A stretch of 54,160 bases of DNA, filler included, from Basidiobolus ranarum (Eukaryota), in assembly GCA_040143965.1 (NCBI GenBank). It is 4 parts of 4 records of this genome, joined end to end, with 100 filler letters (N's around TTAATTAATTAA, not from the genome) between each part and the next. Parts side by side here need not be neighbours in the genome. Positions count along the whole stretch, not along the records: positions 1 to 13,491 come from JASJQH010000478.1; 3 more parts are not named here. One strand, 5' to 3'. The translations under genes and the position numbers were made by a program. Below are positions 159 to 39,725 of the stretch, in pieces. A model generated the notes under the pieces. It worked only from the letters and a program-made list of their open reading frames with translations. It was not told where the DNA came from and did no database searches. The stretch's first letter is position 1. Every line of letters starts with the position of its first letter.

Positions 159-490
159 AAGCAAACATTTCAGAGAGTGCAAGCTCTTGGCTCATAACCT
201 GTTAAAGTATTTATGAGCCCATTGGAAGTGGTTTGGAGAAATAGCAAAGTTGGTGATATTCATTTATTGATTTATTGGGTTTAAAGTTGACATTTGTACT
301 TCTGTCAAGATGTAAAGAAACTAGCATGAAGAGTGTGTTACAGAAGGTCCTAAGAACATGTGTGCAGAGTCTGGGGCTTCTAGCACAAGTCTGAAAAATC
401 TGTATATATGTAGACCTCTATGGTAGTAAAAATATTCCAAGTAAATTCCAATTGAGAATGCTGGGTAATATCTTGGTGATATATAACAAA
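159..490 (-). mobile_element. Copia 5' LTR remnant (family A) with tRNA-iMet primer-binding site
   Basis: On the minus strand the LTR ends ...tactttaaCA at 200 and is followed directly by GGTTATGAGCC (199-189), complementary to the tRNA-iMet anticodon arm. The body aligns by eye with 37263-37611. Confidence 0.75.
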
Positions 491-1085
491 AGTGAAAGTC
501 ACCTATTCTTATAGTATTCCAAATCACGTCCAACAAACTCCCAAAATACTTTAACAATAAATTAACCAAACCATGAGCTAGGCAGAAATTTTAGAAATTT
601 AGACCTTCCTTAGGATTAATTTATAAGACTATTTAGTTGAAGAAGAGTGTCAAAATTAAAGTCACCTAAATATTTATATATAAAAATACTACAGTAAACT
701 TGAGATATTGAAATAGCTACCTATTGTCATTAGAGGATAATTACAACTAACAAGTGCAGCCAAATGGTCACTATTAGTAGGATAATCTTCATACATGTCT
801 TTAAAACTTGAAATCCAGATATTATCATACATGTTGGGAATTATTGCAATTTGAATTTGACTCCGCATAGACAACCATATAAAATAGTGTTATTACATAC
901 AGTTTTAGCCCAGTTCAAGGGCTTCTTCGTAGGAAGTATTGACAGTAGTATTATGTAAATAATCAAATTAACTTATGTACAAGATCGAATAAAATTTATT
1001 AAAATCCTTAGAAGACCTAAAATTGGATAAATCAATATTAGTAATCAATGAGGAGAAATAAGGGAGAAGTGAAATTTTCTAATGA

Positions 1086-1161
1086 TTTCATTCAGTAAAA
1101 CAAGCAAGTTGGAACCATGTGGTATGTCTTAAAGACTAATCGTTAAAGCATCACGATGAAA
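1086..1161 (-). ncRNA. Box C/D snoRNA, copy 1 (predicted LSU rRNA 2'-O-methylation guide)
   Basis: Minus strand: box C-like GTGATGC (1154-1148), box D CTGA (1095-1092), 6-bp terminal stem TTTCAT/ATGAAA. The 12-nt guide CGATTAGTCTTT is complementary to the conserved LSU rRNA segment AAAGACUAAUCG. Confidence 0.8.
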
Positions 1162-1269
1162 AAGGGGTAACTAAACTAATGGATTTCTACGGAAATAAGC
1201 GATATTTACCTAAGAAAAGGATAACGAATTAGTAATGAGTGATAATAAATATTTCATGACTATATATGT

Positions 1270-1349
1270 ATATAAGCTCAGTAAAACAAGCATGTTGGAA
1301 CCATATGGTGTGTCTTAAAGACTAATCGTTAAAGCATCATTGCTGATAT
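1270..1349 (-). ncRNA. Box C/D snoRNA, copy 2 (paralogue of copy 1)
   Basis: Box C-like ATGATGC (1340-1334), box D CTGA (1281-1278), different terminal stem (ATATcAGC/GCTtATAT), identical guide (1328-1317). The core differs from copy 1 at only about 4 positions while the flanks are unrelated. Confidence 0.8.
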
Positions 1350-1704
1350 GGAATTAAGAAAAAAATGAAAAAATGGGTTGCTTTTTACCTTATATGTTTA
1401 TGCAGTCAGAGTGAAGGAAAAAGAGAAGAATGATTTCGTTTTTCTTTCAAGCGAATTTATGGACCTCCATAATCACCCACTCTGAGCATCAGGGGGGCCT
1501 AAGCAAGGGTTATGAATGCTGATTGGCCGAAAGAAGATTATTGGTTTTCAATGGAAATTACTAATGGCTAATGAGATTACTATTTTCTCCATAGTCTATG
1601 GAACGATGATTTGTAAAAAAAGAAGAAAAAAAATTGGTCACAAAGCAAGTAGTAAATGTGAATAGGTAACACCTGTCTTGGAATTTTCGTTAACATCTGT
1701 TATC

Positions 1705-3355
1705 ATGGCCGAAGAGAACACTAACGAGAATCTTACTTTTGCTGAATTGGTATTGGCTCTATTGACACCCTATTTAGAGTTGAGTTATTGTAAGCTAACT
1801 ATTTCCGTTGTAGGGGGTTATTCCTCAATTGGTTGAGGCATGTGAACGCATGAACTATAAGGCTCCCACTGAGATTCAAAGGGAATCCATCCCTTACGCT
1901 ATCAAAGGTACTTTACGACTCTCTATGGTGTTGTGTTTTCTTTGGTATTAACCTTTCTTTGAAGGACGCGACATTATTGGTCTAGCTCAAACTGGTTCGG
2001 GTAAGACTGCTGCTTTTGCGATTCCTATCCTTCAAGCATTATGGGAAAAACCTTCAGGTCTGTTTGCTTGCGTCATGGCTCCCACCAGAGAATTGGCATT
2101 CCAGATCTCTGAGACATTTGAATCCCTCGGTGCTATCATTGGTGTACGCTGTTGTGTTATCGTGGGTGGTATGGATATGATGTCTCAATCTATTGCCTTG
2201 TCGAAGAAGCCCCATATTATCGTTTGCACTCCTGGTAGATTGCAAGATCATTTGGAAAATACCAAAGGATTTTCCCTCAGAACCTTGAAATTCTTGGTAA
2301 GTAATGATATGAAGTTGGATCGATTCATCCGGCGACTTATGTTCATTGTTCTATGCATAGGTAATGGATGAAGCTGATCGTCTCTTAGACATGGACTTTG
2401 GTCCCAAAATTGAACAAATTCTCAAAGTCATTCCCAAAGAACGTACAACCTATCTGTTCTCCGCCACTATGACCACCAAGGTCGCCAAGCTTCAAAGAGC
2501 TTCACTCCAATCGCCCGTCAAAGTCGAAGTATCTACCAAGTAAGTGAAACCTCGGATAAATTCCCAGAGAGCAGATCACCTGACCTAATGTATTATTCAT
2601 TAGATATTCCACAGTGAGCACCCTGCTTCAATACTATCTGTTTTTCCCATTCAAACACAAGGATTGCTACTTGGTTTACCTTTTGAACGAGCTCGCCGGA
2701 AACTCAGCCATCGTATTCTCTAGAACATGTAATGATACCCAACGAATCGCATTGCTGCTAAGAAATCTTGGATTCCATGCAATCCCCCTACATGGACAAC
2801 TTACCATGCAAAAGCGCTTAGGTGCACTCAACAAATTTAAGGCTGGTAGTCGTAATATCTTGATCGCTACTGATGTTGCCAGTAGAGGTTTGGATATTCC
2901 AGAAGTAGATGCAGTTATCAATTACGATATCCCTACCCACTCAAAGGATTATATCCATCGTGTTGGAAGAACTGCACGTGCTGGTAGAGCCGGAAAATCC
3001 CTCACCCTGGTCACTCAGTATGATGTGGAACTTTTGCAACGTATTGAAGCAGTCATCGACAAGAAGTTGGATGAGTTCCCTGTTGATAAGGACACCGTTT
3101 TGCTTCTTCAAGAGCGTGTGTCTGAAGCTCAACGAATTGCTACTATGGTAAGTTCTAGCAACCAAACTTTAGCAAGCGCAATATTTGAATATTCATATTA
3201 ATCTAAACCCTAAACGTTAATAGGAAATGAAGGAGATAAATGCAGCCAAAAAGGGAGGCAAGCGCGGGAACGGAGGTGATGATGACGATGGTGTAGACCC
3301 TGCTATCAAGAGACTCACACAGAGAAAGAATGGAGGAAAGAGACAGCGTCATTAA
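1705..3355 (+). CDS. RRP3: DEAD-box rRNA-processing helicase Rrp3/DDX47; exons 1705-1749, 1814-1907, 1965-2296, 2361-2539, 2604-3147, 3224-3355
   Basis: Spliced translation gives the Q motif (PTEIQ), [28 protein letters not shown] and [10 protein letters not shown]. All introns are GT-AG and keep frame. Confidence 0.95.
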
Positions 3356-4059
3356 TCGATGGGGGCACTTCAAATAGAAACATTAATTACTAAAATCTAA
3401 TTAAAAATTAATAAAACAAAGAGGCTTTTATTTGCAAGTTCTATTCTTCTGTCGAATAAGGCATATACCCTGACTAGCGCTGTAGTGGTTGGTAGTAGTG
3501 GTGGATAGAACTGTGGCCCGTTCCAAGATGGGGGAGTTCGCATGTGCATGCAACCAATATGCAAGGTCAGCTAGTAAAGCTCACCTTAGGGCCGTAACCT
3601 TCTTGCAGGTAGTCCATAACCAGGTTATAATACGTTGTTTGAGTATATATGGAATTGATTGAAATTAGGGTTAGGATGGATGTGTCAATACGTGAAAGGT
3701 GCTCATTGTTATATATTTAGTGATTGTATTTAGTGCTTAGGGTGCCATTATATATATAGTCGACCAAATTCGCACTGAGGTTGGTCCAATCCGATTGAAA
3801 GTTATGCACTATCCCGCCTGAACCCGATAAGAGTCGAGTCCTAGGTTTCATTTGGTTAATATTGGTTAGTATCCAGGAATTATACGTATTAAATCCATAG
3901 GAGTGCGGGTACGAGTGTGCCCATTTACTATTCTATAACTATGGCTCCTACTATTCTATATCCTATATTCTAAACCCTACATCATATATTCTAAACCCTA
4001 CATCCTACGGCTCCTTCTATTACTAAACAAAGCAGCTCCTACCATTACTAAACAAGACA

Positions 4060-4584
4060 ATGGATCAAGCAGTACTGGCTGTGCAATTCACTCCTATTGT
4101 TTCCACGTTTCTCCTCAAATGTGTGTCCCCCCCCGATATGTATGGAACGACATGTATGGAAATTACTTCCTCTTTATCATTATTCTGTAAGCGGATCCTG
4201 CAATCGGATGCGCGTAGAAAGGAATATAGTGTGGACTATAAATACCTGCACCATGAAGACAAGTTCCTTGGTTCAACCATCACTTAACCAAGTACAATCC
4301 AAGCACAGCCTATAATGCTCTGTATCCCTCGATTATTCACATTCAAGCGTTACTCAAGATCCGACTCTAAGCAAAACGCAAGATACAGATGCTTACAAAA
4401 TCTAGACTATGACAACTATACTACTGAGATAGCTCGTCAAGAACTTGAATCTTTTATATCCTCGCCTGTTGTGGACGCATATCCTGATGAGCAAAAGATC
4501 GAGTTCGCGAGACTAGCCGAGTTGCTTGATCTCAGCTATCAGCAATTTGTCACTGATAACAACACTCAAGCTCTACCTTGCTAA
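4060..4584 (+). pseudogene. About 174-codon reading frame of unknown product interrupted by one in-frame TAA (4285-4287)
   Basis: ORFs 4060-4287 and 4315-4584 are in the same frame and separated only by one stop. No recognisable domain. Confidence 0.4.
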
Positions 4585-5071
4585 TACTCGATCTCCCGGA
4601 TGAAAAGCGTATAAATTAACAAGAGCTGTAGCTTAAACATGTATATTACACAACCCTCTTCTGAGGCAACTTGTAGCTAGCTCTCGACCTCTTGCCTCGT
4701 GTACATATCCAAATATGCCTGTTTATTATCTAGACATAAAATCTATAGATTTGTACTCTTTTAAACATCTACAATCACCATTCAAATAAATAACCCGCTT
4801 TCATTCACTTATTTCGTCGCAAAGGTCAACATTTCATAGATCTACCGAATCTGCCTAAGCTGGTAACTTTTAGAAGTTTTTTCAGGTACAATACTCAAGG
4901 AGTGTTACAAAAGGCTCTGGATGTACTTGGGTATATGAATTGGTTGAAGAGAATAAGACCGATCTTTTATTTGTTAGAACAAGAAGAATACAGCAGTCTA
5001 GCGAGGAAAAAATGTTTATATCTACCAATTGCCCAAAAAAGCTCCGTGAATTTTACCGAGGAGAAAGTAAT

Positions 5072-5392
5072 TTAAGCAGCGTATTTTTGGATCATCAGTT
5101 CCAGTTTCTTGACATCAGCACCAACCACTTCATCCACTTTCTGGGAATTTTTAAATACCATAAAGGTAGGCATGGCACTAACACTGAGTGGTTGAACGAT
5201 ATTAGGGAAACGGTCTACGTCTACCTTGATGAAGTAAGCTTTGCCGGCATACTTTTCCGAAAACTCTTCAAACTTTGGAGAGACAACCTTACAAGGACCA
5301 CACCAGATTGCGTAGAAATCAACGATAATGGTTTGACCACTACTGATAACTTTATCGTATGCCTCAAAAGAACCAATTTCAATAACAGGCAT
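5072..5392 (-). CDS. TRX1: Thioredoxin, 106 aa, intronless
   Basis: VDFYAIWCGPCK active site, MPTF cis-proline motif, VVGA; typical length. Confidence 0.95.
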   Translation of the reverse strand: MPVIEIGSFEAYDKVISSGQTIIVDFYAIWCGPCKVVSPKFEEFSEKYAGKAYFIKVDVDRFPNIVQPLSVSAMPTFMVFKNSQKVDEVVGADVKKLELMIQKYAA

Positions 5393-5722
5393 GATGGAAA
5401 GATGGTTAACAATGATACTTACCGAACCTCAAATTACCCTTCAATTTATAGCATATGTCCTCCCACTCTCATTTCCATTGAAAATTTTAAATCAACAATG
5501 CTTATGTAATAGACTGATTGTTAAATATATATGGGGATTTTCTCTGAGAAATTATATGGATTCCATAGCAATATTTGTCAGATATCCACATGGATAATCT
5601 CAAACCACCCCACCCTCCATGACTCCGATTCGTTCACTGTTTCTTCGAACATTCCCGAAAGTGTTAAGTTAAATTCTACTTTCCCAAGGTTGGAATAAGA
5701 TAGTCCTTTAAAGAGTATTGCC

Positions 5723-6974
5723 ATGTCTGTCGATTTCAGTCACGTATTGCCACCTTCTTGGAAGACCAAGATTAACGAATGGATTCAGGAAGACATTCCT
5801 TCTTTTGACTATGGTGGTTTCGTTGTTGGAGAAGACGAGAAGATTGCCATACTCTATGGTAAATCTGAGGTATGGTTTAACTCTCCTTTTCTTTTTACTT
5901 TTTAACTAATAGCTAACTTTCTATGAAGGGTGTTTTGGCCGGTCGTCCTTTCTTTGACGAAATATTCCGCTATTTTGAGTGTCGGTGGGTAACTTCCTAG
6001 TTTATCTTGTTAAATATTGAACTAAACAATCTCTCGGGAATAGTGTTGAATGGTCACTAGAAGAAGGGGAGAAGTTCCAACCTATCAAAGAAGTTGCTAA
6101 GGTGTATGGTAAAGCTAGAAATATCCTTATGGGAGAGCGTTTAGCACTCAACTTAATTGCCCGGTGCAGTGGCGTTGCCACTAGGTATTTAAGTTTGATT
6201 TTCAATCTTATATATGATGGGGTTTCTGACCTGGATGCTATTATTTAGAGCCCGTCGTCTTGCTGACCTTAAAGAAGCTCATGGATACAAAGGAGTAATT
6301 GCTGGCACTCGTAAAACCACTCCTGGTATGTTACAGCATTGCGTTATAAATACAATACGTTTAGGATACTTTGGAGAGTGGTTTAATGATTTCCTTAGGA
6401 TTCAAATTGATCGAGAAGTATGCTATGCTTGTGGGTGGTGTTGACACTCATCGTATGGATTTATCCTCCATGATCATGCTTAAAGATAATCACATATGGA
6501 GTCAAGGTTTGCACTAGTCAGTATACATTTACAACTTCAGCACTTAATATTCTCTTGATTTATCTAGGTTCTATTACTCGTGCTGTCGAAAAGGCCAAAT
6601 TGGTCGGTGGCTTTTCTCTCAAGATTGAGGTTGAGTGCAGAAGTGAAGAGGAGGCCGACGAGGCTATTGAGGCGGGTGCTGACATTGTAATGCTAGACAA
6701 CTTTACCCCCGAAGGCTTAAAGGTAGCTGCCCGTAGCGTCAAACAGAGATGGGCTGAGCGCGGTCGTTCTGTTTTAGTTGAAGCCAGCGGTGGTATTACT
6801 GAAGAAACCGCCGTATCCTACTTCTGCGATGGTATGTTGTATCTGCATGCGTTGCAAACTTAACCTGACCACTAAGAATCTCTTTATACAGATATCGATG
6901 TTCTCAGTTTAGGCGTACTAACTCAAAGCGTTCCCCACATTGATTATTCTCTCAAGATTAAGAGAGGCTCTTAG
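5723..6974 (+). CDS. BNA6: Nicotinate-nucleotide pyrophosphorylase (quinolinate phosphoribosyltransferase); exons 5723-5869, 5929-5984, 6044-6184, 6249-6325, 6399-6506, 6568-6831, 6892-6974
   Basis: [51 protein letters not shown] and IDYSLKI motifs in frame across GT-AG introns. Confidence 0.95.
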
Positions 6975-7136
6975 ATATTCTAAACTATGCCAAAAATAAC
7001 ATGGCAAATAAATAGAAATGTTTAATGAGAATTAGTCATAGTATACACGCTCTTTATGTAGTTCAATTCTCATGAATGGGTAGTTAGTTGAAGCTGTCTG
7101 ATACTGAACTCACGGAGAAAGAAATAAATACGCAAT

Positions 7137-7761
7137 TCAATAATAATACACTCCAAACGCCACCGCGACACAAAATAAAGAGTCCTAATATATTGAATGG
7201 TCAGCAAGCTACACTTGGATGAGTAAGAGAAGTGATACTCATACGTTGGTGAAAATGTCTTGGGCAACATTATCAGTATCGGGATCCCATAGACACCTAC
7301 AGCTCACTCTGCTAAAGCTTTAATGCATATTTGACATCAAAAAGTGAATAATCGAAAATTACCGAGCTCCTTCCCCTCGATTTTCTCCAAGTATCACGTC
7401 CACAACATATTTATAACGGCTCAGCTCAAGTTCTAAATTTGAAATTACTACGTGCACAATGAAGTAGAGCTCCTGCATTCATACCTTTAAGCTTATTTTT
7501 AATCGCTTCGCTAATGTTTAAGGTGAGCTGTGAGGCTTTCTCTGGTTCGTATAGTTGGTTTTGTAAACGTTCTACAAGTATTTGGTGGATTACTTTGCTT
7601 ACAACCGCAGGACGAAACCTTAATAGAACTTTGATAAGAATTTATTCGCCTTAAATGAGATTGAATACATTATGTTGGTATGTTTCCTACTTTTGTGTAA
7701 AATTGGGGCGAATAGAGATTGACCCAGAGGCCTCGGAAGTTTGCTCGTTAGCATCCGCCAT
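7137..7761 (-). CDS. DYNLT2B: Tctex1-family dynein light chain, TCTEX1D2/DYNLT2B type, 128 aa; exons 7761-7691, 7618-7485, 7432-7363, 7308-7245, 7184-7137
   Basis: Manual splicing gives MADANEQTSEASGSISIRPNFTQKFRPAVVSKVIHQILVERLQNQLYEPEKASQLTLNISEAIKNKLKELELSRYKYVVDVILGENRGEGARVSCRCLWDPDTDNVAQDIFTNDSLFCVAVAFGVYYY. This matches TCTEX1D2 hallmarks (RP..Q.FRP.VV, GE.RGEG, RC.WD.DTDN, NDSLFCV..FG..YY). Absent from the ORF track because the exons are short. Confidence 0.9.
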
Positions 7762-8446
7762 ACTTTAGGTTAACTGTGACTTTGGTTATGTATATGGAGT
7801 GTCTTCGTATTGATAAATTTCAATGTGGTTCAATTATCCATATCTACCCAATTACAGTTGTTTTACTTGAAAAAGGGGGTAGGTCCCTTTCTCGATCTTG
7901 AGCCGGTGAATTTACCTGCTCTGTATTACCAGCAAATTCAAAACCAGTACACCATTAATTAGAATGCTTAATACACCATTCTTCATTCCTTTATACGACA
8001 AGCCGTATGACTGGACAATGTGCACTTCAAGCAGTTGAAAGTCTCTACAATGGTTGGATAGCTAGTGTATGGATATGGTGAATCAAGACGTCAAGAGGAA
8101 TAGTCGCAGTGGTGACAGGACCTCATACCGCATACCCCGTACCCACACCCGATCTGAATCAATCAAAGTGACCAAAATATATTGTTAATTCTAGATACCC
8201 ACGGTTGCTTCTCTGGTAAGATAATATACGACAAAGGAGTCCGAAACCTCCCTGACTCAGGTTTGGATATGTCGAATTTACCATTGTATTATTCTATCTT
8301 TGTCCTGGCGTTGCTATACCAACGATATAGAGGAAAGATCACTAGCTAGAGACAATAGGAGAAATACTGGCGATCACTATTTACGATTGGAGGAGAGTAT
8401 AAACAATGACCATATATAGCTTTAGGAGTCACTCATCATTTTAAGC

Positions 8447-8898
8447 TTAGGGGCAGAGAGAGTTGTAATAAATGGAATCAGTATGAGAAGGCAGTTCAAA
8501 GGCGTCAAGAACACCATTAGTCCACTCCGGGCCATTTATTAGACTGTTGATTGGGAATATTACTGATTTCTGGGGATTCAGGCGGCGTTGAATGGATGAG
8601 CAAGAGCATACAAGCATACAGATAGATTTCAATTTATCAACAGAGATTATCATTTGACTATATTAACTATCACATTATCGATGCATGGATAAGGGAGGTG
8701 CAGAAAATACCTTTTACATGCCAAAGCTGTTGCCGCAGATGGTTGAACAAGAACCAAGCCACTGACTACCGGGTAAGTACGCCCAAGATAAAACCATTGG
8801 ACTAGGTAATATAGATAGGGGCGCATTGTGAGCGTGAAAAAGGGATTCTCTACGACCCGAACCACATCTGTCAGTCAGTTTCTTAGGGTTAGGGTTAG
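8447..8898 (-). mobile_element. 5'-truncated non-LTR (LINE-like) 3' fragment with telomere-repeat cap
   Basis: Frameshifted minus-strand pieces (NPFFTL...LVQWFYLG / LPGSQWLGSCSTICG / LPYPCIDNVI / IQRRLNP) resemble the C-terminal W.LG.LPG...C..C region of LINE ORF2 in early-diverging fungi. Both termini are shared with 39154-39247. Confidence 0.55.
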
Positions 8899-8989
8899 CA
8901 ACCACACATTGAATATTTGAAAAGCATTCGATGAACTAAACTTCAAGCTATTGAATAGATCAAATGATGAACTAAGCTTCAGGTTGTTG

Positions 8990-9800
8990 AACGTTGCTAG
9001 CCACTAGAATGCTATAGTTGCCCAGTGACTCCATATTGTGAAACTACCAGCGAACGTTTCCAGTGAACCTTTGATCCAACCAGGTCTAGGAGCTTGGCTA
9101 AGCAAGTCATTATCACAAAATCGGCTTCAGACCAATGATCGAAGTATAACCACGATTCATCTCAGACAATCATTGCCACTTGGAAATTCGTTCAACATTG
9201 GGTTGCCGCACACACATACACAACAACGTAGTAATTAAAATTTACATATCAAATGAGATATTTAATTAAATCGTGCATAACAAGTAATGGTGTCTATTTG
9301 ACATTTAGAGGGTTCAATGCCATTCTTTCCCAATTGACGTCAATTAAGCCCCTTACCCAGGTATTATTGCTCTTGGTTCTGGTCTCAGCATTGGATGAAT
9401 CCATTCCTACCCGTCGTCTCGCCATGTTACCAGCAGCGTTCATCGTGATGCAAATCAATAATACCTGGCATGTCGCATCTTATCCTCCCATTTTGACATT
9501 TCGGGGCGATATTTGAACATTTTCTGCAGGTTATACATTTTGACCGTCATGATAGCAAGCACGAGGTCTGCGGGATTGTTGGAGCAATCATTACCCTTCA
9601 TATTGTGAAGGATCCAACGATTCGTCGTCATGTGCACTCAGCTGACATCAGTGGTTAGTGGGATTTCAAATTGGCTATTTTTCAATAAGTAGAACTTCGT
9701 GTCCCCTGACTTTGACTCCTTTCGCTTCGGTTCATGCCTTGATTGTCTTGCGGATTAAATTGGTTTCAGCTAGTTTGAATTTACCCACTTCAGGTTCTTA
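8990..9800 (-). pseudogene. Decayed multi-Myb (Reb1/TTF1/DMTF1-like) gene remnant
   Basis: Broken frames read GKFKLAETNLIRKTIKA*TEAKGVK, KMYNLQ..., ISKWQ*LSEM and HWSEADF...KVHWK, in the order expected for Reb1-type Myb repeats. Many stops and frameshifts. Confidence 0.35.
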
Positions 9801-10393
9801 CCTCCATGAAATCCTCTTACCGTTTGAGATCACTTCCACTCGTTAAAGTTTCACCGATACATATTATATACACACCCAGCCATTAATATGAAAAGCTTAT
9901 TTATTCAGAATGTAATACATAATAATGAACAGTCTCAAGGCCCCAATTGGGATAGTTGATTACTATAAATTGAAGTCACGGTCACAGTCTGGTCAATTCG
10001 TACATCAAGGTATTACTTGAGGCTTTCACATCTTCATACAACGCAGACAAGAACGGAAACGCTACCCTAAGTTTCTACCAAACATTCTCCAAAAGTAAAG
10101 GGTGTGTAATTAATGCTTGCCTGATTGAAAACTAACTTTATTATCATTATTCCATTGTTCATCGTTACTCCCCTCCCCTCCCAAATCCTCAAGTATACTT
10201 AGATATAGAGCATTTGTTTCTCCGTTTTATTAACGTTCATAAGAGTCTCTTTGAATCCCATAGCATCTAGGTCTTCTTTTAGAACTCGCTTTATTTAGTT
10301 TTTAGCAGGGCTTGTTCATTCGATCTTACTCTATAGAAGTGATCAATTGACGATTATTTATTTAGACTAGCAAACACTCAATCCCATTCAAGT

Positions 10394-12362
10394 ATGAGTA
10401 AGAGCAGAAAAGGTTGCGAGATTTTCCATTCAGAACGTGAAGAGGAATCGAAATCCTATTTCCCTTCAAAGCAGTCGATCTTATCTTTCCAAAATCACCA
10501 GAGAGAATCTGATCGAACAGTTGAACATTTCGATTTCGAGTTGGTCGACGAGAAATTCATGTGGGACACTCCTCATGAAAACGACAATCTCTCTGGAACT
10601 CCCATCTCTATTACTGAGATTTCCTCTCATGTTAATCCAACCTCTTTATTCCTTCATTCCGGAACAATGCCTCCGAGTGAAATGTGGGTTCCATGTTAAC
10701 TATTAACTCTTTGAATACCTTCACTAAACTGTCGTTTTCTAAAGGAGTGAGCTCACAACTAGCTCGGAGAGTCATACTAACTCGGATGAAGAGGGTGAAG
10801 GTGAAGGTGAAGGTGAGATTGAGAATCATTCTGAACCTTCAACCACCTCAGATAACCAGCCAGCGGCTTCTGACTGGATTAAAAAGTAACTCTTCATAAC
10901 TACTCTTCTTTCATGCTATACATAACTGATCACATTCTTTACTCTCAACAGTGACCCTTATGATGACGAAAATATCCCGGAAATTGATGATATCGATCCA
11001 GACTTCGTTCATTCCTTGAGTGATATTGAGCCCAGTTTAGTAGAAACACCCATTCCTAATAAGAAACGTAGTGGATGGTTGAAATTGATTTTAAGTGTAC
11101 TCCCGATATTCTGTGCTATATTGCTCATCCAAATGCCCGATTCTACGCTTGATATTCTACTCACCACTTTGGAGCAACATGGTCTTTTCCCAAGTTTGAA
11201 GAATGATTACCTCTCAATCGCTCCACAAAAACTTACAGAAAGGGTATGCCTTGCTCCGGCATCACCTACCTATTCATACATGTTCCTTTCAGAGTGTTTC
11301 CGAGAGGAATGTGAGGTAATTGTGGTAGCCAAAGACCTTCAAGGAAATCCCAAGACAGCCGGCGGTGATACCTTCACTGCGACAGAAATCAATCTCAATA
11401 AGGATCAATACAACATTACTTTGCCTATTTATGATATCGGAAATGGAAGGTATTTGGTAAATGTTCCTCGACCTAACAAGCAGGCGGAATCCATTGTTCA
11501 AGTGACATTGGCAGTTACGATGAAGGAGATCAGCAATTCGCCTTTGACTGTTCTTTGGCCTGCGGATAAAACTGAGAAATACGCAGAAGTTGCATCCGAG
11601 GGATCTCCGATCAAAGAAGGATCGATAATGAAAACTGAGGAGCCAGAGGTTCATCACCAAGAGGATACCCTTACTCTGCCAGATGTTGAAATCATTCCAG
11701 ATATAGATCCTATGTCCATTCCTTCTGAGCTAAACGCTGAGTTACATGACCCTCCAACTCCCTTTGTTCCCTATCAAAAAGAAAGCCAGACTGCAGCAGA
11801 TGCCTACACTGAAGAACCCACTCAGTTGGTAGAAAGTACTCTAGAACAAAATGAGGATATTCATACAATCTACGAACATGATAAACCCGCTACACAACAA
11901 CCAGTTGAGACTACCAAAATCCCTGAAGATGTTGAAACCACAGAGACCCAACATACTTCCACTGAACAATTTGAGCAAACTGTGAAGCATGTGAATAAGG
12001 AAAAAACTTGTCCTATATATTCTTTGAACTGTCACCTCCGCCACTTAGACATTGCCACTCCTATTAAGGGTGCCGTACAGAGTGCTTTGAGTATCCGCAG
12101 CCGTATGAGGAACAATATCATGAATGCCCTGAGCCATCTCAATGTTGCATTTGACAAACGTTTTAAATCTATTGCGGGAAATTCACTCACTCATATAGTC
12201 GAAGCCAGACGTTTCGCCAGAGATACACTTTTCAATGGTGTAAATAAGGTGAGGGGATATACCCAAGTCGTAGGAAGAATTGCAATCAACTGGAGACAAC
12301 AGACAAGGAAAAGCTTTTCAGTCATAGGAGATAGAATCAAGCGTCTCTTTCGTCGTAACTAA
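10394..12362 (+). CDS. Uncharacterised single-pass membrane protein with one filamin/ABP280-type Ig repeat; exons 10394-10683, 10745-10885, 10952-12362
   Basis: Two frame-preserving GT-AG introns join the upstream ORF to the 448-aa ORF. Hydrophobic segment WLKLILSVLPIFCAILLI; filamin-repeat pattern AKDLQGNPKTAGGDTF...DIGNGRYLV...ISNSPLTV. Confidence 0.8.
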
Positions 12363-13392
12363 TGGTCTTTAGTGGGTAAAATCCATCTCATACTGCTCAC
12401 TCCAACCTCTACAATGAAAATTCCGTTCATTATTCACTCAAAGGCATGGATCTTCTTTTCTTTATATACTTTCCAATTTGAATTTGTCAACTTTTCGTTT
12501 GCTGTTTGATATTCTTACAGCGTTTGTCTACCTAGTTCGTCAATACATTCTCAGATATATAGTGACAAAATGACGAGATTATGACTCCTAGAATTCTCAC
12601 CACCCAACCCACACTTACTTCCGATCTTCATGTAATTTTCCCTTTATTATTTCTGCTGATCATGATAGAGTTTTACTAGGATCTAGATAGTAGTATACTC
12701 TTTGTAAAGAGGTTACCAGACTTTACATATGATCTTCATTTTCTAATTGCGTTCGTCTTCGATTGACTTAATTATAAAGAGATTCGCAATTTGACAGTTA
12801 CATTGATTGATTTTTAGAATGATTGTCGTGAACAATAATAACTCGCGTGAAATATTCAATCACGAATTTCAGATGTCCCAACGTTACTATAATGTACCAT
12901 GGAAGGAGAGTGACTATTGACTAGCTGTCCCCATATTTGCACATATGGATAGTTGGAGTCGATTCAATCAAATATGACTAAACAAACTTCCTGAAGATTC
13001 ACTGTTCATCCACCGCCCTTTTATCTGGCAGGATTGTTCCTTGATATATTTATGGGAATTTCTTTAATTCACCTAAAATTCAACATTCAAAACACTGAAT
13101 TTCAATATTATCGTGGATTAAGAAATGCGATAATAATTATGTGAGGTGGTATTCACCCCATCATCTAATCCTTCAAGTCCTAAATTATTTTGATGTGAAA
13201 GAGCCCAGTATTTCTAGCATGATGATAGGCACTCTTGTTAGTATGAACTGTATTTGGGCAACTATCACTTAATATACTAGTGCTTATTATGGGTGAGTAA
13301 GCGAGCTTTCTTTAGGTTTACAAACCAAGTGACAAACTTTCAGCTTCACTCCAAAAGTTGATAAAAGTATTCGATACTGTAGCCACATAATC

Positions 13393-13480
13393 TATTGAAA
13401 TTAACATAGCCTAAACACCTATATAGTCATATATAGCTTAGTATTTTAGTCATTCCATATTGAACTAAGATATCACCTCA
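13393..13480 (+). mobile_element. 5' fragment of a family A LTR at a contig end
   Basis: tattgaaattaacatagcctaaacac...gaactaagatatcacc matches the starts of the LTRs at 37263 and 38934. Confidence 0.7.
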
Positions 13481-13491
13481 AGAGGAATTTA

Positions 13492-13591
13492 NNNNNNNNN
13501 NNNNNNNNNNNNNNNNNNNNNNNNNNNNNNNNNNNTTAATTAATTAANNNNNNNNNNNNNNNNNNNNNNNNNNNNNNNNNNNNNNNNNNNN
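13492..13591. other. Artificial contig linker (N44-TTAATTAATTAA-N44)
   Basis: Six-frame stop linker flanked by Ns; identical to 27062-27161 and 40615-40714. Confidence 0.95.
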
Positions 13592-16500
13592 TGCACTTAC
13601 AATGCTTAGGGTGTTTCGAAATGGTATGTTCATAATTACTGCTTGAACCCTGGTATTAAGTGAAATACAACTCCACTAGCAATTTTGAGTTCGGTTAGGA
13701 AAATGGAGCCCAATACCCTTTAAGTACCATCTCCGAACCACCTCCAAATCCGCCTTCTGAACTCTAATCGATCACGCTATAATTGATCACTTGCCGCAAT
13801 CCTGAAATTCATGAAATCTGCTGCGGATAATCACTTGCATAGACAATCTTGTACCACTACAAGATACAAGGTAGAGTTGAAGCTCTCAAAATATCTCTCG
13901 GAATATATATATGCAACCGCGTGGAGGCTATCTTTGTCCGTGACTCTTACCCGGTGTGGACAGCTGGATGAAGACCAAACACCGCAACTTGAGCAATGGC
14001 AAAATGTATTGCCCATCTTGGCTCTTCTGAAATCAATAAAAATTACCTTCAAGCCCAGAGTCATTCTATCTTTATGTTGGGTCATAGATGAAATTTACAT
14101 ATTTGAGCCCTGCACCAATAGATCATATAGTTAAGATAAGTCTCTTTTAGTAGATGAATATTTGGGATTGGCAATTATATTTAGTTTTTTAACTTGTAGG
14201 AGTCGCGTGATAAATGGCATAATATTCAACGATCATTAGAGCAAAGTCATCTTTGGCGAAGGTAATTAAATATAAATTGACCTCACTTTGTGCCAGCAGA
14301 AGCCCCTAAAAACAAAACTATAAATCCCTATCGCTGGATGCAAAAATAGCCTACATAGCCTATGAATAGTTTGGGCCTAGGCGGCTAAATATTTCAAGCG
14401 TAAGGGTAATAGTTTAGCACCAAATAGAAAAGTTTATCTACAGTTCAGACAAACTAATTCCCCTTGTTTTGTTCCACTAAACCACCAGTTGTGCAATAGA
14501 GATCATATTATGAATTGGTTGATGAAACCATCCATTAATGAGCGAACTAGGCTATGTATATCAAAACCACTAAAACTTCATCTGGGAAATAGGTGGATCA
14601 ATTGCAATCAATCACCCTGGCCCATATGACAAAATCTCCTTTGTAGGCAATACGGATTATATCAAAGCCAACGACAATTACATACTATTGCTTAATGATG
14701 TACCAAAAAGAAAAACCACACTAACGACCCACCTGAAACACTATCAAATTCCTGATTCCACCTCATTAGTGTATGAGTAAGCGGATGTTTTCGTTATATT
14801 CAGCTTTTTGAGCACTGGTCCTACAATAGCGACTTAAATAAGAGTGCCCCAGATTGAGATGGATACAAGTTTATCAACATTTGAATAGGGTGAAACCTTT
14901 CACCCGAATCTCCTTGTGATAAAAAAGCTAACCTTAAACCAATTAAACCAGCCATTATTAATTTTTAGCTGGGCGTCCATCAGACCCAACGCTAAACTGT
15001 CAAGCATTAGTTTGCAGACATACATATTATATCCCAAAATGACGCTAGTATCATGATAGTAACGATAGTGGAGTCTTTATACTAGCCCCAGTTTGTGCTG
15101 CTCATACTGCAGTTGAGATAGTGAGGATAATCTCCTCAACTGATGTTCATTAACGAAGTTAGCCAATGCCCATGCTGGCTGGTCTTATTCAGTTATTGTT
15201 AGTCGTATGTAGAAAGAGAATCACAAGAATAAATTCCCTTTTTAGTTTCCTGAAAAACAAGCTTCCGCTCCCTGACTTGATCACCTAGTTCTCGCATAGT
15301 TTCTACTAATAATAACGTGCTATAAATAATAATAGTGTTGGAGGCTAAGGTTCAGATTTAGGATCCAAATCTCACTCTCCCTCTTACCTCCCACATGCGA
15401 GTGTCTGTTCATTGGATATGGCAATTGTCAATCATGAATGGGTATTCCGTATTACCGAAGTCATCGCATCAGAATTACCATGTCTTGGTTTCCATATTAA
15501 ATATGCTGGTCAGGGAACTTTCAAGATTCATTGTAATCATATTGATTTATTACGATGATAAAATTAGCGATGAAGAGCGAATGCTGGCCGTTCTATACAT
15601 AGCTCTGCTCTACGAATTTCCCTTTTGGGTCACATATAAGCTTACTGAATGGGATGAGTGAAAATGTCACAGGGATATATTCCCTTTTTGGGAAGATCTG
15701 TTCATTGCAACAAGGTGGGTAGTTGCTAGAGGTGTAGAAAATATGTGTGTAACAGTAAGAGGGTTAATTCACTTCATCGCCAAATGGTTAAGGACCAATC
15801 CACGCTTGACTTTGGATACGTGTTAAGGAATTGCAGAGCTATTCTCGGTGTCTGAACTTTTAATTCCTTTCGACAAGACAATTGAGCGATGTATAATTAT
15901 TCTTGTACGACATTCCCTTGCCTACTTATTGGTTTTGGTTACCCAATGTTAAGCGTTTTTGCAGCGATGTATATCGACCGGTTTTGTCGTGGTGTTCATA
16001 TGATATGATGGACAAACATGGTTCAGTAAGGTAAGCTCCGGCTTAGAGTTATTTCCAAGATATTTGCCGCGAACTAGAGCGCTCACCCTGGAATCGAACG
16101 AACTTCAATAATACCAGTGGGTGATATCAGAGGTAAAGGTTGCCAAGAAATCAGCCTGCGTGCAGAGGTTTGTTTTAAAATACAGTGCGATTAAGTTGGT
16201 CTGATGGAAAAGGAATGCCTTTTCTGAATTCGGTATTTTTGTGATTATTTTAGAATACCCAGATTAATTCATTGATTTCTGCTGATAGTTTATTTGGTAT
16301 CACTTTTCTTGAGTTGACTATTGGCAGCTTGCTGGTATGAAACATGAATGAAAAATTGAATTGACAGCAGCAGGTTGAATGATTTCACCATACCCGTTTT
16401 GATGTTGGAGATATGGATTCAATTCAATTTACTCCTATATCTGTATGTTCTCCCAGAATATTTAAGAACCCAACTCTCGCCCCTAATCTATAAACTATAA

Positions 16501-16631
16501 TCGCCTTTTCTTTCTTTTGTTCTTGAGCAATCTTCCAGAAAAGTTCCATTATTTTTCTTATTCTATTCCAAGTTTTCACTACGTGTGAATTTAGTACTCT
16601 TAGTATCATAAGCATCTAAAGATTTTATAAC

Positions 16632-29385: not shown

Positions 29386-29389
29386 TGTA

Positions 29390-31078: not shown

Positions 31079-34000
31079 TATACGAGGTTTATTGTGTATG
31101 AATTAAAGGCGAAGGTTGGAAGTGGGAATGTGGGGAGGATAGCGGGAATGAGTCGATAAACGTCAGATGTAGAGACAAGGGAAAGGTTTAAAGTTTGTTA
31201 GTTACAGAAGCTAAGACGAGTGAGGTTGAGGGAACCAAGCGAGATGGTTATATAGTTGTTTGCCTTTCAACAATATACTGCCTATATGCTTGATGGATGT
31301 TGGGGTCATATTTCCATTCGCTACTAAATAAGGAGATTGGATCCTAAGTAGCTCCAGAGCGATTGGATGGCCGCTAAACGTAAATGTGCATTAGATTGAT
31401 ACATATTTAATGACAGGCCAATTAAACAATAAGAAGAGCAATTTAAATAGCATTCCTAAACCTTAATCTCGAGAGAGAAAATGATGGAACTGACGATTTG
31501 GACAGCGAAAGTCATCAGTGGGATGCATGCAGACAGTCCTCAGACTAGATGTACCCTAGAAACAACGGATCAACGGGAGAGCGATAACCGGTTTGGCTGA
31601 GAGAACCAAGTCAGCACTAATTGTTCATGCCAACCCATGACATTCCATGATGAAACCATCATTTGGGTTCTGGTCAGGTCTTGGTCAAACCCCGGATCGA
31701 TTTCCATTGAGCGATCACAATCGGTTGAGAAAGAGACTCAGCTCCATCCATCTTTATTTCCAGTGTCTGAGTCCAGCGTAGTAACTAATTAAAAGTTTGG
31801 TTTAAGAAACGCCACTCTATATGGGAGAGGATCATGTGAGTGGCAGGGCTTCTCTCTATGCATCATTCGTGGCCAGTCCTTCTCTGCGGATAGCGAGCAG
31901 TGCTCTCAGTTTGGATCCACACGGTATAGCCGTATCTACGCACAATGGGGAAAGTGGCAACTACTTAAGTTCCGAAGGACTGTGATCGCTTCTCCTACAT
32001 ATTGTCATACAAATATTCCTCATCTGACCTGCTGGATGGCAATCTACCATTGTTTGGAAGTGAATATGACGCAACATCCTAATCGAGGTATCCTTCATTA
32101 TCGAGCTGCATAATTCTGTGGAATGTCTTGATTATTACCTAGGATTTAGTCGCTGATAGTAAATAGTAACTTGGAATATGGAGATGTAATCGGCGCTATC
32201 TAGTGCATGCAAGTAGCCTCTAACTTGGCAAGGTCCCAGAATGATCTTTCTTCACAGGTGCTTACCAGAAAGTGACCGAATAGTGATCCAATGGGCGCTG
32301 TAAGTCAGATTTTCCAATTGCACCGGCATTGATTGGAGTATATTATTACTTCTGGCCATTAGTCTCACAATGAAACGTGGCTGGTATAATGGGCAATACG
32401 GGGTGTTTGCGAATGTGCTTAGATTACTGCTAGCATTCTACATAGTCCTTACAAATGTGGACTGCCTAGCAAAGGTTTTCCTCTACGCATAACTCCAGCC
32501 GCTGCGCCAGGAGGTAAGCCACCATGTATCCAATTGCCCATCAATATACGCCTCAGGCGTCTTATTCAGTGTTTCAAGTATGAGCGCCAGTACAGACTAT
32601 CCATGTTGTGAGGCTCTTTCGGCATCTCAAGTTGCGAACTCTCTTTAGTTATTTGATAGCTAGTTTTTTGCCTCGCTGATTTCCATCGCTAAGCTGTGTA
32701 TATGGATACAATGACATTTACTAGATTCTCGATAAAACGTGATATTATCGCAAAATATGCTTCTAGATGATTGGATGGCATCGGCTATTCTGTATAGGTG
32801 GATAAATGTCATTGGCTGTGTAGATATGAGGTTTAATGAATTATCCAAGACAAATAGGAAGTAGTGAATTAGGGGACCTGCCTGATATGGGAGAGCGGTC
32901 AGTCCTTACAATGTACCATACGGCTGCCATATTCATATTAATGCTGAAGATTATGTCAAACTGCAACTGTAATCGTGTTGCATGGAGTTATGAAGTAACT
33001 TAGTGTCTGGTAAGCATAGTGACTATGGAACACTTAGGGTTAGCTGACTAGGGTACTGAAAATAACCTTATACATACATCCAGTACTCACCTTTAAGCTC
33101 CATCGGATTAAGTACACCGCAGTAGAGATGTTGCATGGAGCGATTTCATGTGGTTCACAAGCTATTTTCTGGCCGTAGAATTGGTGTTGGATACATGCAT
33201 GTTATTGGTGTTAGTTTTGTTTCTTCTTGCTGAGAGCACTACGCTCACCAGCCTTTTGGAATGTTTGTTGCATGCAACATCGGGGCATTGACTTAAAACA
33301 ATGGACCGCCTCCCTTACCTCCATTGTTTCTTATTATTTTCCTTTTTAGACTTCGCATCTTCTATATGTTTCATGGAACCCACTGATTTCAAACATTGCA
33401 ACAAGCGGGGCACCTGCGTGGCAGCTCCATTTCGCTCTCTTAGTGGCCGGGAGTTGATGATTCATTTTGACCTTATCATCAGTCTGTCAATAAGTCTGTG
33501 GGATTGCTATGGTGGCTTCGATTTAATTTGACTGGCATAGATTGTTTCCATTCTACAACTGAGGCACATCACTGAAAATATAGGTAAGATAACGTTCAGA
33601 ATAGCCTGCTTCAAGCACTGGATTACCCAATTGTGTACTCAACCAATCCAGTTCTTTACTTCATGAACTTGAAATAGATCAATACATGTATTTACTTCGG
33701 TGATGTTGCTGTGAAGTGTAATCATCTTGAAACAAATCCACTATATTTATAACATCAGTACATTAATTTTATGACCCTTCGCCATAGTAATGATTTTCAA
33801 TCAAAATTTAGTGCACACATTCCCGGTTTACCAGGTGAAAGTCACAAAAGGAAAGGCGGATATGTGGCGAAGCCCTCTATTATCTCTGCACGATTGTCAT
33901 AATGCTCTAGGGATTAATTCAGTCTTAACTTCTATGGAACAATGTTACTAATAGTAAGGGCTCTTTGAAATAGATAAGTAAAGATTGAGTACTTCTACAA

Positions 34001-37135: not shown

Positions 37136-37136
37136 G

Positions 37137-38933: not shown

Positions 38934-39147
38934 TGTTGAAATTAACATTGTCTAAACACTAATATGGTTATATCTAGCTTAGTATTTAGTTATGCTATAT
39001 TGAACCAAGATATCACCCATTATTCTCATGAGGAATGTACTTGAAATATTCTTACTAACTTAGAAGTTATGAAATATATAGATTTTTCAAATTTGTACTA
39101 TAGCCCTAAATGTTGCACCCATGTCCTGGGACCCTCCTTAACACATT
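38934..39147 (+). mobile_element. 5' part of a family A LTR, truncated next to the LINE-like insertion
   Basis: tgttgaaattaacattgtctaaacac...gggaccctccttaacacat aligns with 37263-37477. Confidence 0.8.
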
Positions 39148-39153
39148 TGGTGG

Positions 39154-39725
39154 TTAGGGGCAGACAGTCACCCACAGGTGAAATCTTTATTTAAAACAAA
39201 ACAAAGAAGCCATAACTACTTTTGCAGTTTCTTAGGGTTAGGGTTAGAGAAAGAGTGAAGATCTGGAGTATTGGTATGAATGTTGCAAAGTAGAAAAGTT
39301 AAGTCAGTAGAGTCTAAGACGCTATTAGGAGGGGCGGGAGATGGTAACAAAGGTAAAAATAGTTTGTCAACAATAGAAAATAGTGGAATGAGACCAGGAT
39401 TAACATAGAGCATAAAGGGAGTGTGTTTCTGAAGATAGTGCTGCCAAAGGTCAGCCAAGTATTCCTCATAGGCAAGGGTAAGCCTCTCAGCTTGTTCACA
39501 AATGGAAGCAAATTTTCTGACTTCAGGATCTCCTAGCAATATTCTCCAGCAAGAAGATGAATCAGTCAAGTGGGAACCTCTCCAGGACATAATCAGAGGG
39601 TTCTGACTCTTACAAATCCTGATGAATAGTCTAGTCTTGAGGTAGAGAATTCTAAGACTATATGGAAGTAATCCAAAGGCACCAAGTATGGCATGTCTGT
39701 AAGGGCACAATGTAAGTGATATCAT
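39154..39725 (-). mobile_element. LINE-like ORF2 C-terminal fragment (39248-39725) plus a 94-bp telomere-capped 3'-end copy (39154-39247)
   Basis: ORF HAILGAFGLLPYSLRILYLKTRLFIRI...PLFSIVDK resembles the post-RT region of LINEs. The 94-bp unit has AATAAA and the same two termini as 8447-8898. Confidence 0.55.

What the first reader, a model, noticed from the sequence alone, without database searches (positions are those of the whole stretch)
8447..8898. LINE-like insertion carrying a fixed telomere-repeat cap shared with a second, shorter insertion 30 kb away
Seen: 8447-8898 (452 bp) and 39154-39247 (94 bp) both start TTAGGGGCAGA(G/C)AG and both end with the identical 23-mer CAGTTTCTTAGGGTTAGGGTTAG (8876-8898 and 39225-39247), with dissimilar interiors. 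TTAG is repeated directly at both ends, and there are no inverted termini or poly(A) tail. In element sense, joining the 3' end (...CTGCCCCTAA) to the cap through the shared CTAA gives exactly (CCCTAA)3 followed by GAAACTG. Established: 5'-truncated LINE copies normally have no constant 5' sequence, while telomere-associated retroelements (Athena/Coprina PLEs, MoTeR, SART/TRAS) use telomeric repeats for priming or targeting. Inference: this may be a retroelement family that primes at TTAG through a CCCUAA tract and adds the same short leader at any truncation point, by template jump or a circularly permuted intermediate. It would seed interstitial telomere repeats. Only two copies are visible here.
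Basis: partly seen in the sequence, partly recalled or inferred. Interest (0 to 1): 0.85.

Follow-up and report, generated by a model that had tools for sequence, protein, structure and literature searches.

The report
Truncated fungal LINE tails, telomere-like ends
The shared "telomere cap" is the last few codons of a jumping gene (a LINE retrotransposon) in a Basidiobolus-like fungus, so these are mostly ordinary truncated LINE tails, with the unusual feature that the element ends in one telomere-type unit and lands at TTAG sites.

Summary
The motifs are real and non-random: the 23-mer is exact at 8876-8898 and 39225-39247 (0 of 100 shuffles). The framing needs correcting in three ways.

1. 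The window is four separate ~13.5-kb contigs joined by N/TTAATTAATTAA linkers, so "30 kb away" has no physical meaning.
2. The 94-bp unit is not an insertion of its own. Its right side continues, in frame on the minus strand, into about 155 codons of a LINE ORF2 (82% identical to a 664-aa reverse-transcriptase protein, E 1.5e-78). The 23-mer encodes ORF2's last residues (NPNPKKL, then QK-stop). The rest of the 94 bp is the stop codon, a 62-nt 3'UTR and the 3' terminus ...CTGTCTGCCCCTAA, which abuts a TTAG native to a dispersed repeat.
3. The 452-bp unit shares only that 23-mer (at its 5' edge) and the terminal 14 nt with the LINE. It is a LINE-derived short copy whose 415-nt interior is unexplained.

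Two more segments, 3586-3675 and 32869-33043, show the same TTAGGG...TTAGGGTTAG bracket.

Best reading: 5'-truncated copies of an endonuclease-type LINE whose RNA ends in CCCCUAA and primes on TTAG. The "cap added at any truncation point" idea is not supported. One open point is that NPNP equals exactly two extra telomere hexamers at a native TTAG.

The parts
39154..39725 (-). 5'-truncated copy (about 555-570 bp) of an endonuclease-type LINE: ORF2 C-terminal ~155 codons, stop, 3'UTR, 3' terminus.
   Evidence: phmmer: P0121 (664 aa) residues 503-657, 82% identity, E 1.5e-78. tblastn maps it to 39707-39249. Alignment. Relatives carry RVT_1 and Exo_endo_phos_2.
39225..39247 (-). The 23-mer 'cap'. 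In element sense it encodes NPNPKKL, the last residues of ORF2 before QK-stop. NPNP (12 nt, two telomere hexamers) is extra relative to three homologues.
   Evidence: Translation. Alignment: window DLHSFSNPNPKKLQK* against P0121 DLHTLV----KKLQM and P0123 QLHTLV----SKLQQ.
39154..39218 (-). Stop codon (39216-39218) and 62-nt 3'UTR, ending in ...CTGTCTGCCCCTAA. The last 4-6 nt are shared with the target, so the exact end is ambiguous. An AATAAA lies about 30 nt before the end (seen by eye).
38934..39157 (+). Copy of a dispersed repeat R that served as the target. Its homology to other R copies stops at about 39147. The TTAG at 39154-39157 aligns with TTAG/CTAG in other copies. The remaining 130 bp or more of R is absent downstream.
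   Evidence: blastn, MAFFT. Smith-Waterman of the R remainder against 39248-40615 scores 35 and 29, against shuffle means of 31 and 30; two full R copies score 146 against each other.
8447..8898 (-). 452-bp short copy. It shares with the LINE only the 23-mer at its 5' edge (8876-8898) and the 3' terminal 14 nt (8447-8460, 13 of 14 identical). The 415-nt interior is unrelated to the LINE 3'UTR and to anything else in the window. TTAG stands at both edges.
   Evidence: The right flank is not LINE-like.
3586..3675 (-). 90-bp segment with the same bracket (plus strand: TTAGGG...TTAGGGTTAGG), lying about 230 bp past a DEAD-box helicase gene. It has no LINE-specific sequence.
32869..33043 (-). 175-bp segment with the same bracket (plus strand: TTAGGGG...TTAGGGTTAG). 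It has no LINE-specific sequence.

Best explanation
These are 3'-terminal, 5'-truncated copies of a non-LTR (LINE) retrotransposon family with an APE-type endonuclease and a reverse transcriptase, in a Basidiobolus-like fungus. The elements lie on the minus strand.

Shown:
- The copy at 39154-39725 is collinear LINE sequence: ORF2 C-terminus, stop, short 3'UTR and a 3' end ...CUGCCCCUAA without poly(A).
- The 23-mer 'cap' is ORF2's last codons.
- The 3' end abuts a TTAG that belongs to the target repeat.

Inferred:
- The endonuclease nicks after TTAG.
- That 3'-OH pairs with the CUAA at the RNA's end and primes reverse transcription, as in target-primed reverse transcription.
- The telomere-like tract at the end of ORF2 puts three more TTAGs on the growing cDNA. 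A cDNA that stops there can then pair with the TTAG of the other target strand.
- This would give short copies that begin exactly at the tract and appear flanked by a TTAG duplication, as at 8447-8898.

The 415-nt interior of that copy is either a variant 3'UTR of a sister subfamily or foreign RNA picked up by template switching. This is not resolved. The segments at 3586 and 32869 probably arise the same way from other RNAs or subfamilies, but that link rests on the bracket alone.
For: - ORF2 homology right of the 94-bp unit: E 1.5e-78, 82% identity, residues 503-657 of 664. tblastn places it at 39707-39249.
- The KKLQ-x-stop ending is shared with P0121 and P0123, and the tract is in frame.
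- Relatives carry RVT_1 (3 of the 4 tested) and Exo_endo_phos_2 (1 of 4). Two are Basidiobolus meristosporus proteins.
- The host's AFG3 protease is 87-88% identical to Basidiobolus.
- The TTAG at the 3' junction aligns with TTAG/CTAG of other copies of the target repeat.
- The 452-bp copy has the identical 23-mer and 13 of 14 terminal nt.
- All four telomeric tracts are perfect. One-mismatch variants number 2, within the shuffle expectation of 3.4 for all matches, so the events look recent.
- The four-fold bracket is non-random.
Against: - Only one of the four segments (39154) is shown to continue into LINE coding sequence. tblastn finds none beside the other three, and nucleotide alignment of their flanks is at shuffle level.
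- The interior of the 452-bp copy shows no similarity to the LINE 3'UTR, so it is not a simple truncated copy of the same master.
- No target-site duplication was found at the 5' end of the 39154 copy, and the rest of the target repeat is missing. The 'TTAG duplication' is therefore untested there and rests on 4-5 nt elsewhere.
- No full-length element, no empty site and no genome-wide count could be obtained.
- The nearest relative lacks the NPNP tract, so it is not known whether an active master carries it.
- The endonuclease match is barely above Pfam's cut-off (27.5 against 27.4 bits), and it comes from a 36%-identical relative.
Confidence: 0.6

Rival explanations
1. Telomerase writes the hexamers. 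DNA 3' ends that stop at TTAG, whether LINE cDNA ends or broken chromosome ends, are extended by one or two GGTTAG rounds before joining or before reverse transcription resumes. The tracts would then be made anew at each event. The LINE would matter only for the two copies that carry its sequence.
For: - NPNP is exactly 12 nt, two hexamers, sitting at a native TTAG and absent from 3 of 3 aligned homologues.
- The segments at 3586 and 32869 have the bracket but no LINE sequence.
- Three of the four tracts end in TTAG.
- There is precedent in vertebrates. Telomeric repeats were inserted at breaks, sometimes with a few nucleotides copied from beside the telomerase-RNA template (8 of 14 rodent loci; PMC2246262, passages read). 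Deletions and additions occur at the flanks (PMC8537989, sections 2.4 and 3.2 read).
- Flank loss is seen at 39154.
Against: - The 7 nt before the tract (CAGTTTC) are LINE coding sequence (KKL), not necessarily telomerase RNA.
- Both LINE-bearing copies carry exactly two extra hexamers at the same LINE site. Inheritance from one master explains that more simply.
- The density, 4 in 54 kb, is far above the vertebrate counts (41 loci in 22 species; PMC8537989 abstract).
- No telomerase RNA of this fungus is available. Rfam finds none in the window.
Confidence: 0.2
2. One reading: a retroelement that attaches the same short telomere-repeat leader to any truncation point, by template jump or through a circularly permuted intermediate.
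For: - The 452-bp copy has the 23-mer next to sequence unrelated to the LINE.
- Joining the 3' end to the cap gives an uninterrupted (CCCTAA)3, seen directly.
Against: - In the 39154 copy the 23-mer is collinear and in frame with ORF2 on both sides, so it is ordinary element sequence there.
- Only one copy shows a 'cap on foreign sequence'.
- The metagenome contig with the full 23-mer (L006) is a different, DIRS/Ngaro-like element that reads it in another frame. It is best taken as coincidence among 7 hits to a 19-mer.
Confidence: 0.07
3. Endonuclease-deficient Penelope-like elements (Athena/Coprina type), or non-autonomous riders on them, primed on telomere-like 3' ends.
For: - The topology is the same as Coprina copies, which have telomeric repeats on both sides in one orientation (PMC13159263, passages).
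- The RNA would end in reverse-complement telomere sequence.
Against: - No hammerhead ribozyme was found: Rfam gathering scan of the whole window and a sensitive scan of 8300-9050.
- The coding sequence beside the tract belongs to a family with RVT_1 plus an APE-type endonuclease, not a PLE.
- All four sites are internal, next to housekeeping genes.
Confidence: 0.03
4. Circular DNA cassettes integrated by a tyrosine recombinase (Crypton-like) at a TTAG core inside a (TTAGGG)3 attachment site.
For: - The ends permute to a perfect (TTAGGG)3.
- Short conserved ends bracket variable interiors.
Against: - No recombinase gene is in the window.
- The 39154 unit is collinear LINE sequence.
- The flanks at 39154 are not contiguous.
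Confidence: 0.02

Closest known systems
APE-type non-LTR (LINE) retrotransposons that end in a short specific repeat instead of poly(A) and prime by pairing that end with the nicked target. Examples are recalled, not checked here: the 'stringent' eel UnaL2 with a (TGTAA)n tail, I-factor with (TAA)n, and R1-clade elements.
   Same: RT plus APE-type endonuclease family, 5' truncation, no poly(A), a 3' end sharing 4-6 nt with the target, and short microhomology at the 5' junction.
   Different: The terminal unit is the host's telomere hexamer (CCCTAA). A second telomere-like tract sits in the last codons of ORF2. The clade (Tad1, L1, I and so on) was not determined.
Telomere-repeat-specific LINEs (TRAS/SART of insects; other telomere-associated LINEs of fungi and algae). 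Recalled, not checked here.
   Same: A LINE whose integration involves the telomere-repeat sequence.
   Different: Those insert into telomeric arrays. Here all four sites are internal single TTAG(GG) sites next to ordinary genes, and at 39154 the target is a dispersed repeat.
Athena/Coprina endonuclease-deficient Penelope-like elements (PMC8557442 and PMC13159263, passages read; the founding paper PMC1890498 is not held).
   Same: An RNA ending in reverse-complement telomere repeat, and copies bracketed by telomere repeats in one orientation.
   Different: No hammerhead ribozyme. The RT family carries an APE endonuclease. Copies are not at chromosome ends and are 90-570 bp long.
TERC-ITS and short interstitial telomeric sequences inserted at double-strand breaks (PMC2246262, passages; PMC8537989, abstract and sections 2.4 and 3.2).
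   Same: A short perfect telomere tract at a site with TTAG microhomology, a few constant nucleotides before the tract, and loss of flank at one site.
   Different: The constant nucleotides here are LINE coding sequence. No telomerase-RNA fragment was identified. The density is far higher.
Microhomology at the 5' junctions of truncated human L1 insertions, and L1 chimeric retrocopies made by template switching (for example U6-L1). Recalled, not checked here.
   Same: These would explain a 5' end fixed at an internal TTAG-rich tract, and a copy with LINE ends around a foreign interior.
   Different: No such hot-spot built from telomere repeats is known to me. This is untested here.

Membership tests
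Non-LTR (LINE) retrotransposon, APE-endonuclease type | Encodes a reverse transcriptase of the non-LTR type | tested here: met
   The window holds only the C-terminal ~155 codons. Their homologues carry RVT_1: P0121 1.6e-24, P0122 2.7e-10, P0124 3.5e-22; P0123 has none. An FADD box was seen by eye in P0121.
Non-LTR (LINE) retrotransposon, APE-endonuclease type | N-terminal apurinic-type endonuclease | tested here: inconclusive
   Exo_endo_phos_2 appears only in P0124, the 36%-identical relative: E 3e-06, 27.5 bits against a cut-off of 27.4. The other three proteins are N-terminally incomplete.
Non-LTR (LINE) retrotransposon, APE-endonuclease type | Copies share the 3' end and are truncated at variable 5' points | tested here: met
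   The copy at 39154 starts at ORF2 residue ~506. The copy at 8447 starts at the tract. Both end in CTsTCTGCCCCTAA. There are only two copies.
Non-LTR (LINE) retrotransposon, APE-endonuclease type | Target-site duplication flanking each copy | tested here: inconclusive
   TTAG (4 nt) stands at both edges of 8447-8898 but overlaps the element's own repeats. None was found for the 39154 copy. No empty sites are available.
Athena/Coprina (EN-deficient Penelope-like elements) | Hammerhead ribozyme next to the reverse-complement telomere repeats | tested here: not met
   0 Rfam families at gathering threshold in the window. At E up to 5 in 8300-9050 the only hit is an unrelated lncRNA model. The 39154 copy was scanned only at gathering threshold.
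Athena/Coprina (EN-deficient Penelope-like elements) | Located at chromosome termini, attached to telomeric arrays | tested here: not met
   Internal sites beside a DEAD-box helicase, thioredoxin-like, QPRTase and other genes. No telomeric array is present in any of the four contigs.
Athena/Coprina (EN-deficient Penelope-like elements) | PLE-type RT lacking an endonuclease | tested here: inconclusive
   The relatives include an APE-endonuclease domain. No RT phylogeny was run.
TERC-ITS (telomerase-RNA-templated break repair) | Sequence beside the repeats matches the species' telomerase RNA | not testable with these tools
   No telomerase RNA of this fungus is available, and no genome is held. 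Rfam telomerase models give no hit.
TERC-ITS (telomerase-RNA-templated break repair) | An orthologous empty site shows a one-step insertion | not testable with these tools
   No related genome DNA is available. A paralogous repeat copy shows only that the left TTAG is native and that the flank was lost.
Telomere-repeat-specific LINEs (TRAS/SART type) | Insertion into tandem telomeric repeats at a fixed register | tested here: not met
   The targets are single TTAG(GG) sites. At 39154 the other copies of the target repeat read ...CATGTTAGTTAGTTTACA.

The most novel reading that the evidence does not exclude
In this fungus, telomerase and a LINE reverse transcriptase may work on the same DNA ends. 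Any cDNA or break end that stops at TTAG would be extended by one or two GGTTAG rounds, and it could then be rejoined or even re-paired to the RNA so that copying resumes. That would write perfect telomere hexamers inside a LINE reading frame (the NPNP codons) and at the 5' junctions of retrocopies of unrelated RNAs. At one bracketed segment per ~13.5 kb here, it would seed interstitial telomere tracts by the thousand across the genome.
Probability: 0.2. Interest if true: 0.7.

Novelty: new member of a known kind. Interest (0 to 1): 0.3.

Why it matters
As pitched, a retroelement that stamps a fixed telomere cap on any truncation point, this would have been a new mechanism. The evidence instead points to an undescribed but conventional LINE family in an under-studied fungal lineage.

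Two modest points remain of value. First, a LINE whose RNA ends in the host's own telomere unit and lands at TTAG is a compact example of primer-template pairing guiding integration, and it spreads short interstitial telomere tracts. Second, the exact two-hexamer insertion in ORF2, and the two bracketed segments without LINE sequence, leave open a testable link between telomerase and retrotransposition intermediates.

For annotators: these brackets should be masked as LINE tails, and concatenated-contig windows should not be read as physical maps.

Tried and rejected
- **Whole genome:** not held.
- **Metagenome scan for the 19-mer:** 7 contigs, 6 of them plainly unrelated. L006 has the full 23-mer, but its ORFs show RT-like features with a YLDD box, an RNase H-like motif and tyrosine-recombinase motifs. 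It has no similarity to the Basidiobolus LINE proteins and reads the 23-mer in another frame. I treat it as coincidence.
- **Hammerhead, telomerase RNA or any Rfam family:** none.
- **Structured RNA in 8447-8898:** z = 0.18 (minus strand) and +2.3 (plus strand).
- **Similarity among the four interiors, to the rest of the window, or to the LINE 3'UTR or ORF2:** none above shuffle level.
- **Host-gene origin of the 415-nt interior:** the plus-strand 59-aa frame has no homologue among longer proteins, which is weak evidence. Minus-strand frames were not searched.
- **More family members:** only P0121 was returned.
- **Target-site duplication at the 5' end of the 39154 copy:** none.
- **Telomerase-RNA read-through as the source of CAGTTTC and GCAGAsAG:** this was my leading idea until. 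It was set back because CAGTTTC is LINE coding sequence.
- **Bacterial promoter/terminator scan:** irrelevant to a fungus.
- **Earlier scan notes:** nothing on this genome.
- **Literature searches:** the listings showed no paper on Basidiobolus LINEs or telomere-like LINE ends. The Basidiobolus listings were seen as titles and abstract starts only.

Full report
**Observation.** The two stretches are as described. TTAGGGGCAGAGAG lies at 8447-8460 and TTAGGGGCAGACAG at 39154-39167. The 23-mer CAGTTTCTTAGGGTTAGGGTTAG is exact at 8876-8898 and 39225-39247, with no further match at up to 3 mismatches and 0 of 100 shuffles giving two. The head motif alone is weak evidence: 7 of 100 shuffles give two or more matches at up to 2 mismatches. 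The interiors are unrelated.

**The window is not one molecule.** N(44)-TTAATTAATTAA-N(44) linkers split it into 1-13491, 13592-27061, 27162-40614 and 40715-54160 (lengths 13491, 13470, 13453 and 13446). A protein of the second piece is on record from a contig of exactly 13470 bases. The two copies are therefore on different contigs, and '30 kb away' carries no meaning.

**Host.** A Gti1/Pac2 domain marks a fungus. The AFG3-type protease ORF is 87-88% identical to Basidiobolus meristosporus and B. ranarum proteins. Everything below rests on 54 kb plus protein databases.

**More copies of the pattern.**
- TTAGGGTTAG occurs at four loci, all on the plus strand. Each has exactly one TTAGGG 78-436 bp upstream: 3586-3675, 8447-8898, 32869-33043 and 39154-39247.
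- Simulations expect 0.116 such loci, and 0 of 1000 reach four. Only 13 of 1000 contain any pair.
- The conditional chance that the two new loci are paired is about 0.008.
- One-mismatch variants are at chance level, so the tracts are intact and probably young.
- The two new segments lack the GCAGA head and the CAGTTTC pre-tract motif.

**Ideas tested before the turn.**
- Rfam finds nothing: no hammerhead and no telomerase RNA.
- Neither strand of 8447-8898 folds better than shuffles.
- The four interiors match nothing in the window.
- The vertebrate TERC-ITS literature looked close. Repeats there were inserted at breaks, preceded in 8 of 14 rodent loci by a few nucleotides copied from beside the telomerase-RNA template, and flanks show deletions (PMC2246262 passages; PMC8537989 sections 2.4 and 3.2).
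- A dispersed repeat R ends at about 39147. The TTAG at 39154 aligns with TTAG/CTAG of other R copies, and the rest of R (130 bp or more) is not downstream. So that TTAG belongs to the target, and the site is not a clean insertion with a duplication.

**The turn.** The open frame on the minus strand immediately right of the 94-bp unit (39249-39725) was searched exhaustively.
- It matches residues 503-657 of a 664-aa protein at 82% identity, E 1.5e-78. Three further proteins match at 54-56% and 36% (tblastn 39707-39249).
- These proteins carry RVT_1 (3 of 4), and one carries Exo_endo_phos_2. Two are from Basidiobolus meristosporus. This is a LINE family.
- The alignment of C-termini reads DLHSFSNPNPKKLQK-stop in the window, against DLHTLV----KKLQM and QLHTLV----SKLQQ at the ends of the relatives.

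The 23-mer, read on the minus strand, therefore encodes NPNPKKL, the end of ORF2. The 94-bp unit is ORF2's last nine codons, the stop (39216-39218), a 62-nt 3'UTR and the 3' terminus ...CTGTCTGCCCCTAA. Position 39247 is not an element boundary. The copy runs to about 39707-39725 and is 5'-truncated there, and no target duplication is detectable.

**What remains for the 452-bp unit.**
- It shares with the LINE exactly the 23-mer, at its 5' edge in element sense, and 13 of the 14 terminal nt.
- Its right flank is not LINE-like at protein or nucleotide level.
- Its 415-nt interior is unrelated to the LINE 3'UTR.

It is LINE-derived, but it is not a plain truncated copy of the same master. It could come from a subfamily with a different 3'UTR, truncated at the tract, or it could be a template-switch chimera. 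A plus-strand frame of the interior has no homologues (weak evidence).

**Mechanism.**
- Shown: the RNA-sense 3' end is ...GCCCCUAA without poly(A), and it abuts a target TTAG.
- Inferred: the endonuclease nicks after TTAG. The TTAG 3'-OH pairs with the terminal CUAA and primes cDNA synthesis.
- Inferred: cDNAs that reach the tract end in TTAG repeats that can pair with the other target strand. This fixes the 5' junction there and mimics a TTAG duplication.

This is ordinary LINE biology, with the host telomere unit as the terminal repeat.

**Open oddity.** NPNP is 12 nt, two telomere hexamers, at a native TTAG, and it is absent from all three aligned relatives. The segments at 3586 and 32869 have the bracket without any LINE sequence. 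A role for telomerase in extending TTAG-ended intermediates is therefore not excluded. I put it at about 0.2.

**Known families.**
- Athena/Coprina elements share the topology (PMC8557442, PMC13159263; passages). They fail on the hammerhead test, on the endonuclease and on location.
- TRAS/SART-type targeting of telomeric arrays is not met.
- The metagenome contig L006, with the same 23-mer, is a DIRS/Ngaro-like element that reads it in another frame. It fits chance among 7 hits to a 19-mer.

**Verdict.** This is a new member of a known kind, of modest interest.

Noticed in passing
window 13492-13591, 27062-27161, 40615-40714: N(44)+TTAATTAATTAA+N(44) linkers. The window is four contigs of 13491, 13470, 13453 and 13446 bases in descending length, so distances and relative strands across linkers mean nothing.
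   Followed up: yes
window 37137-38116; also 1-560, 13395-13491, 29404-29589, 38934-39147: A nest of dispersed and fold-back repeats. Inverted arms 37137-37262/37991-38116 and 37612-37774/37833-37995 are 90% complementary. A ~345-bp repeat R has a constant left end and variable right ends in five copies. It is probably a MITE- or SINE-like family and was not classified.
   Followed up: partly
window 35696-36292, minus strand: Decayed LTR-retrotransposon fragment: a CCHC zinc-knuckle-like frame (seen by eye) and a weak Pol_BBD match (E 0.0012, below cut-off).
   Followed up: partly
L006 1-3874, minus strand (metagenome contig): DIRS/Ngaro-like retroelement of an unknown eukaryote. It has an RT-like ORF with a YLDD box, an RNase H-like TDASGEG, and tyrosine-recombinase motifs (HSLRASGAMAL, MLRYL). 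A (CCCTAA)2.7 tract lies about 40 codons after the catalytic-Tyr motif and carries the same 23-mer as the window. The motifs were read by eye, and Pfam found nothing in 3 ORFs.
   Followed up: partly
protein P0122 (Basidiobolus meristosporus gene model): The model runs from a LINE ORF2 C-terminus (...LHTLVSKLQH) straight into an internal RT segment (EQSSVFSVPNGVVQGSVL...). This suggests head-to-tail or nested LINE copies joined near the ORF2 end in that genome too.
   Followed up: no
whole window: TTAGGG is twice as common on the plus strand (21) as on the minus strand (10). Ten of the 21 lie in the four bracketed segments, and the remainder (11 against 10) is symmetric.
   Followed up: yes
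window 10926-12359, plus strand: A 478-codon open frame with no Pfam match. It was not examined further.
   Followed up: no
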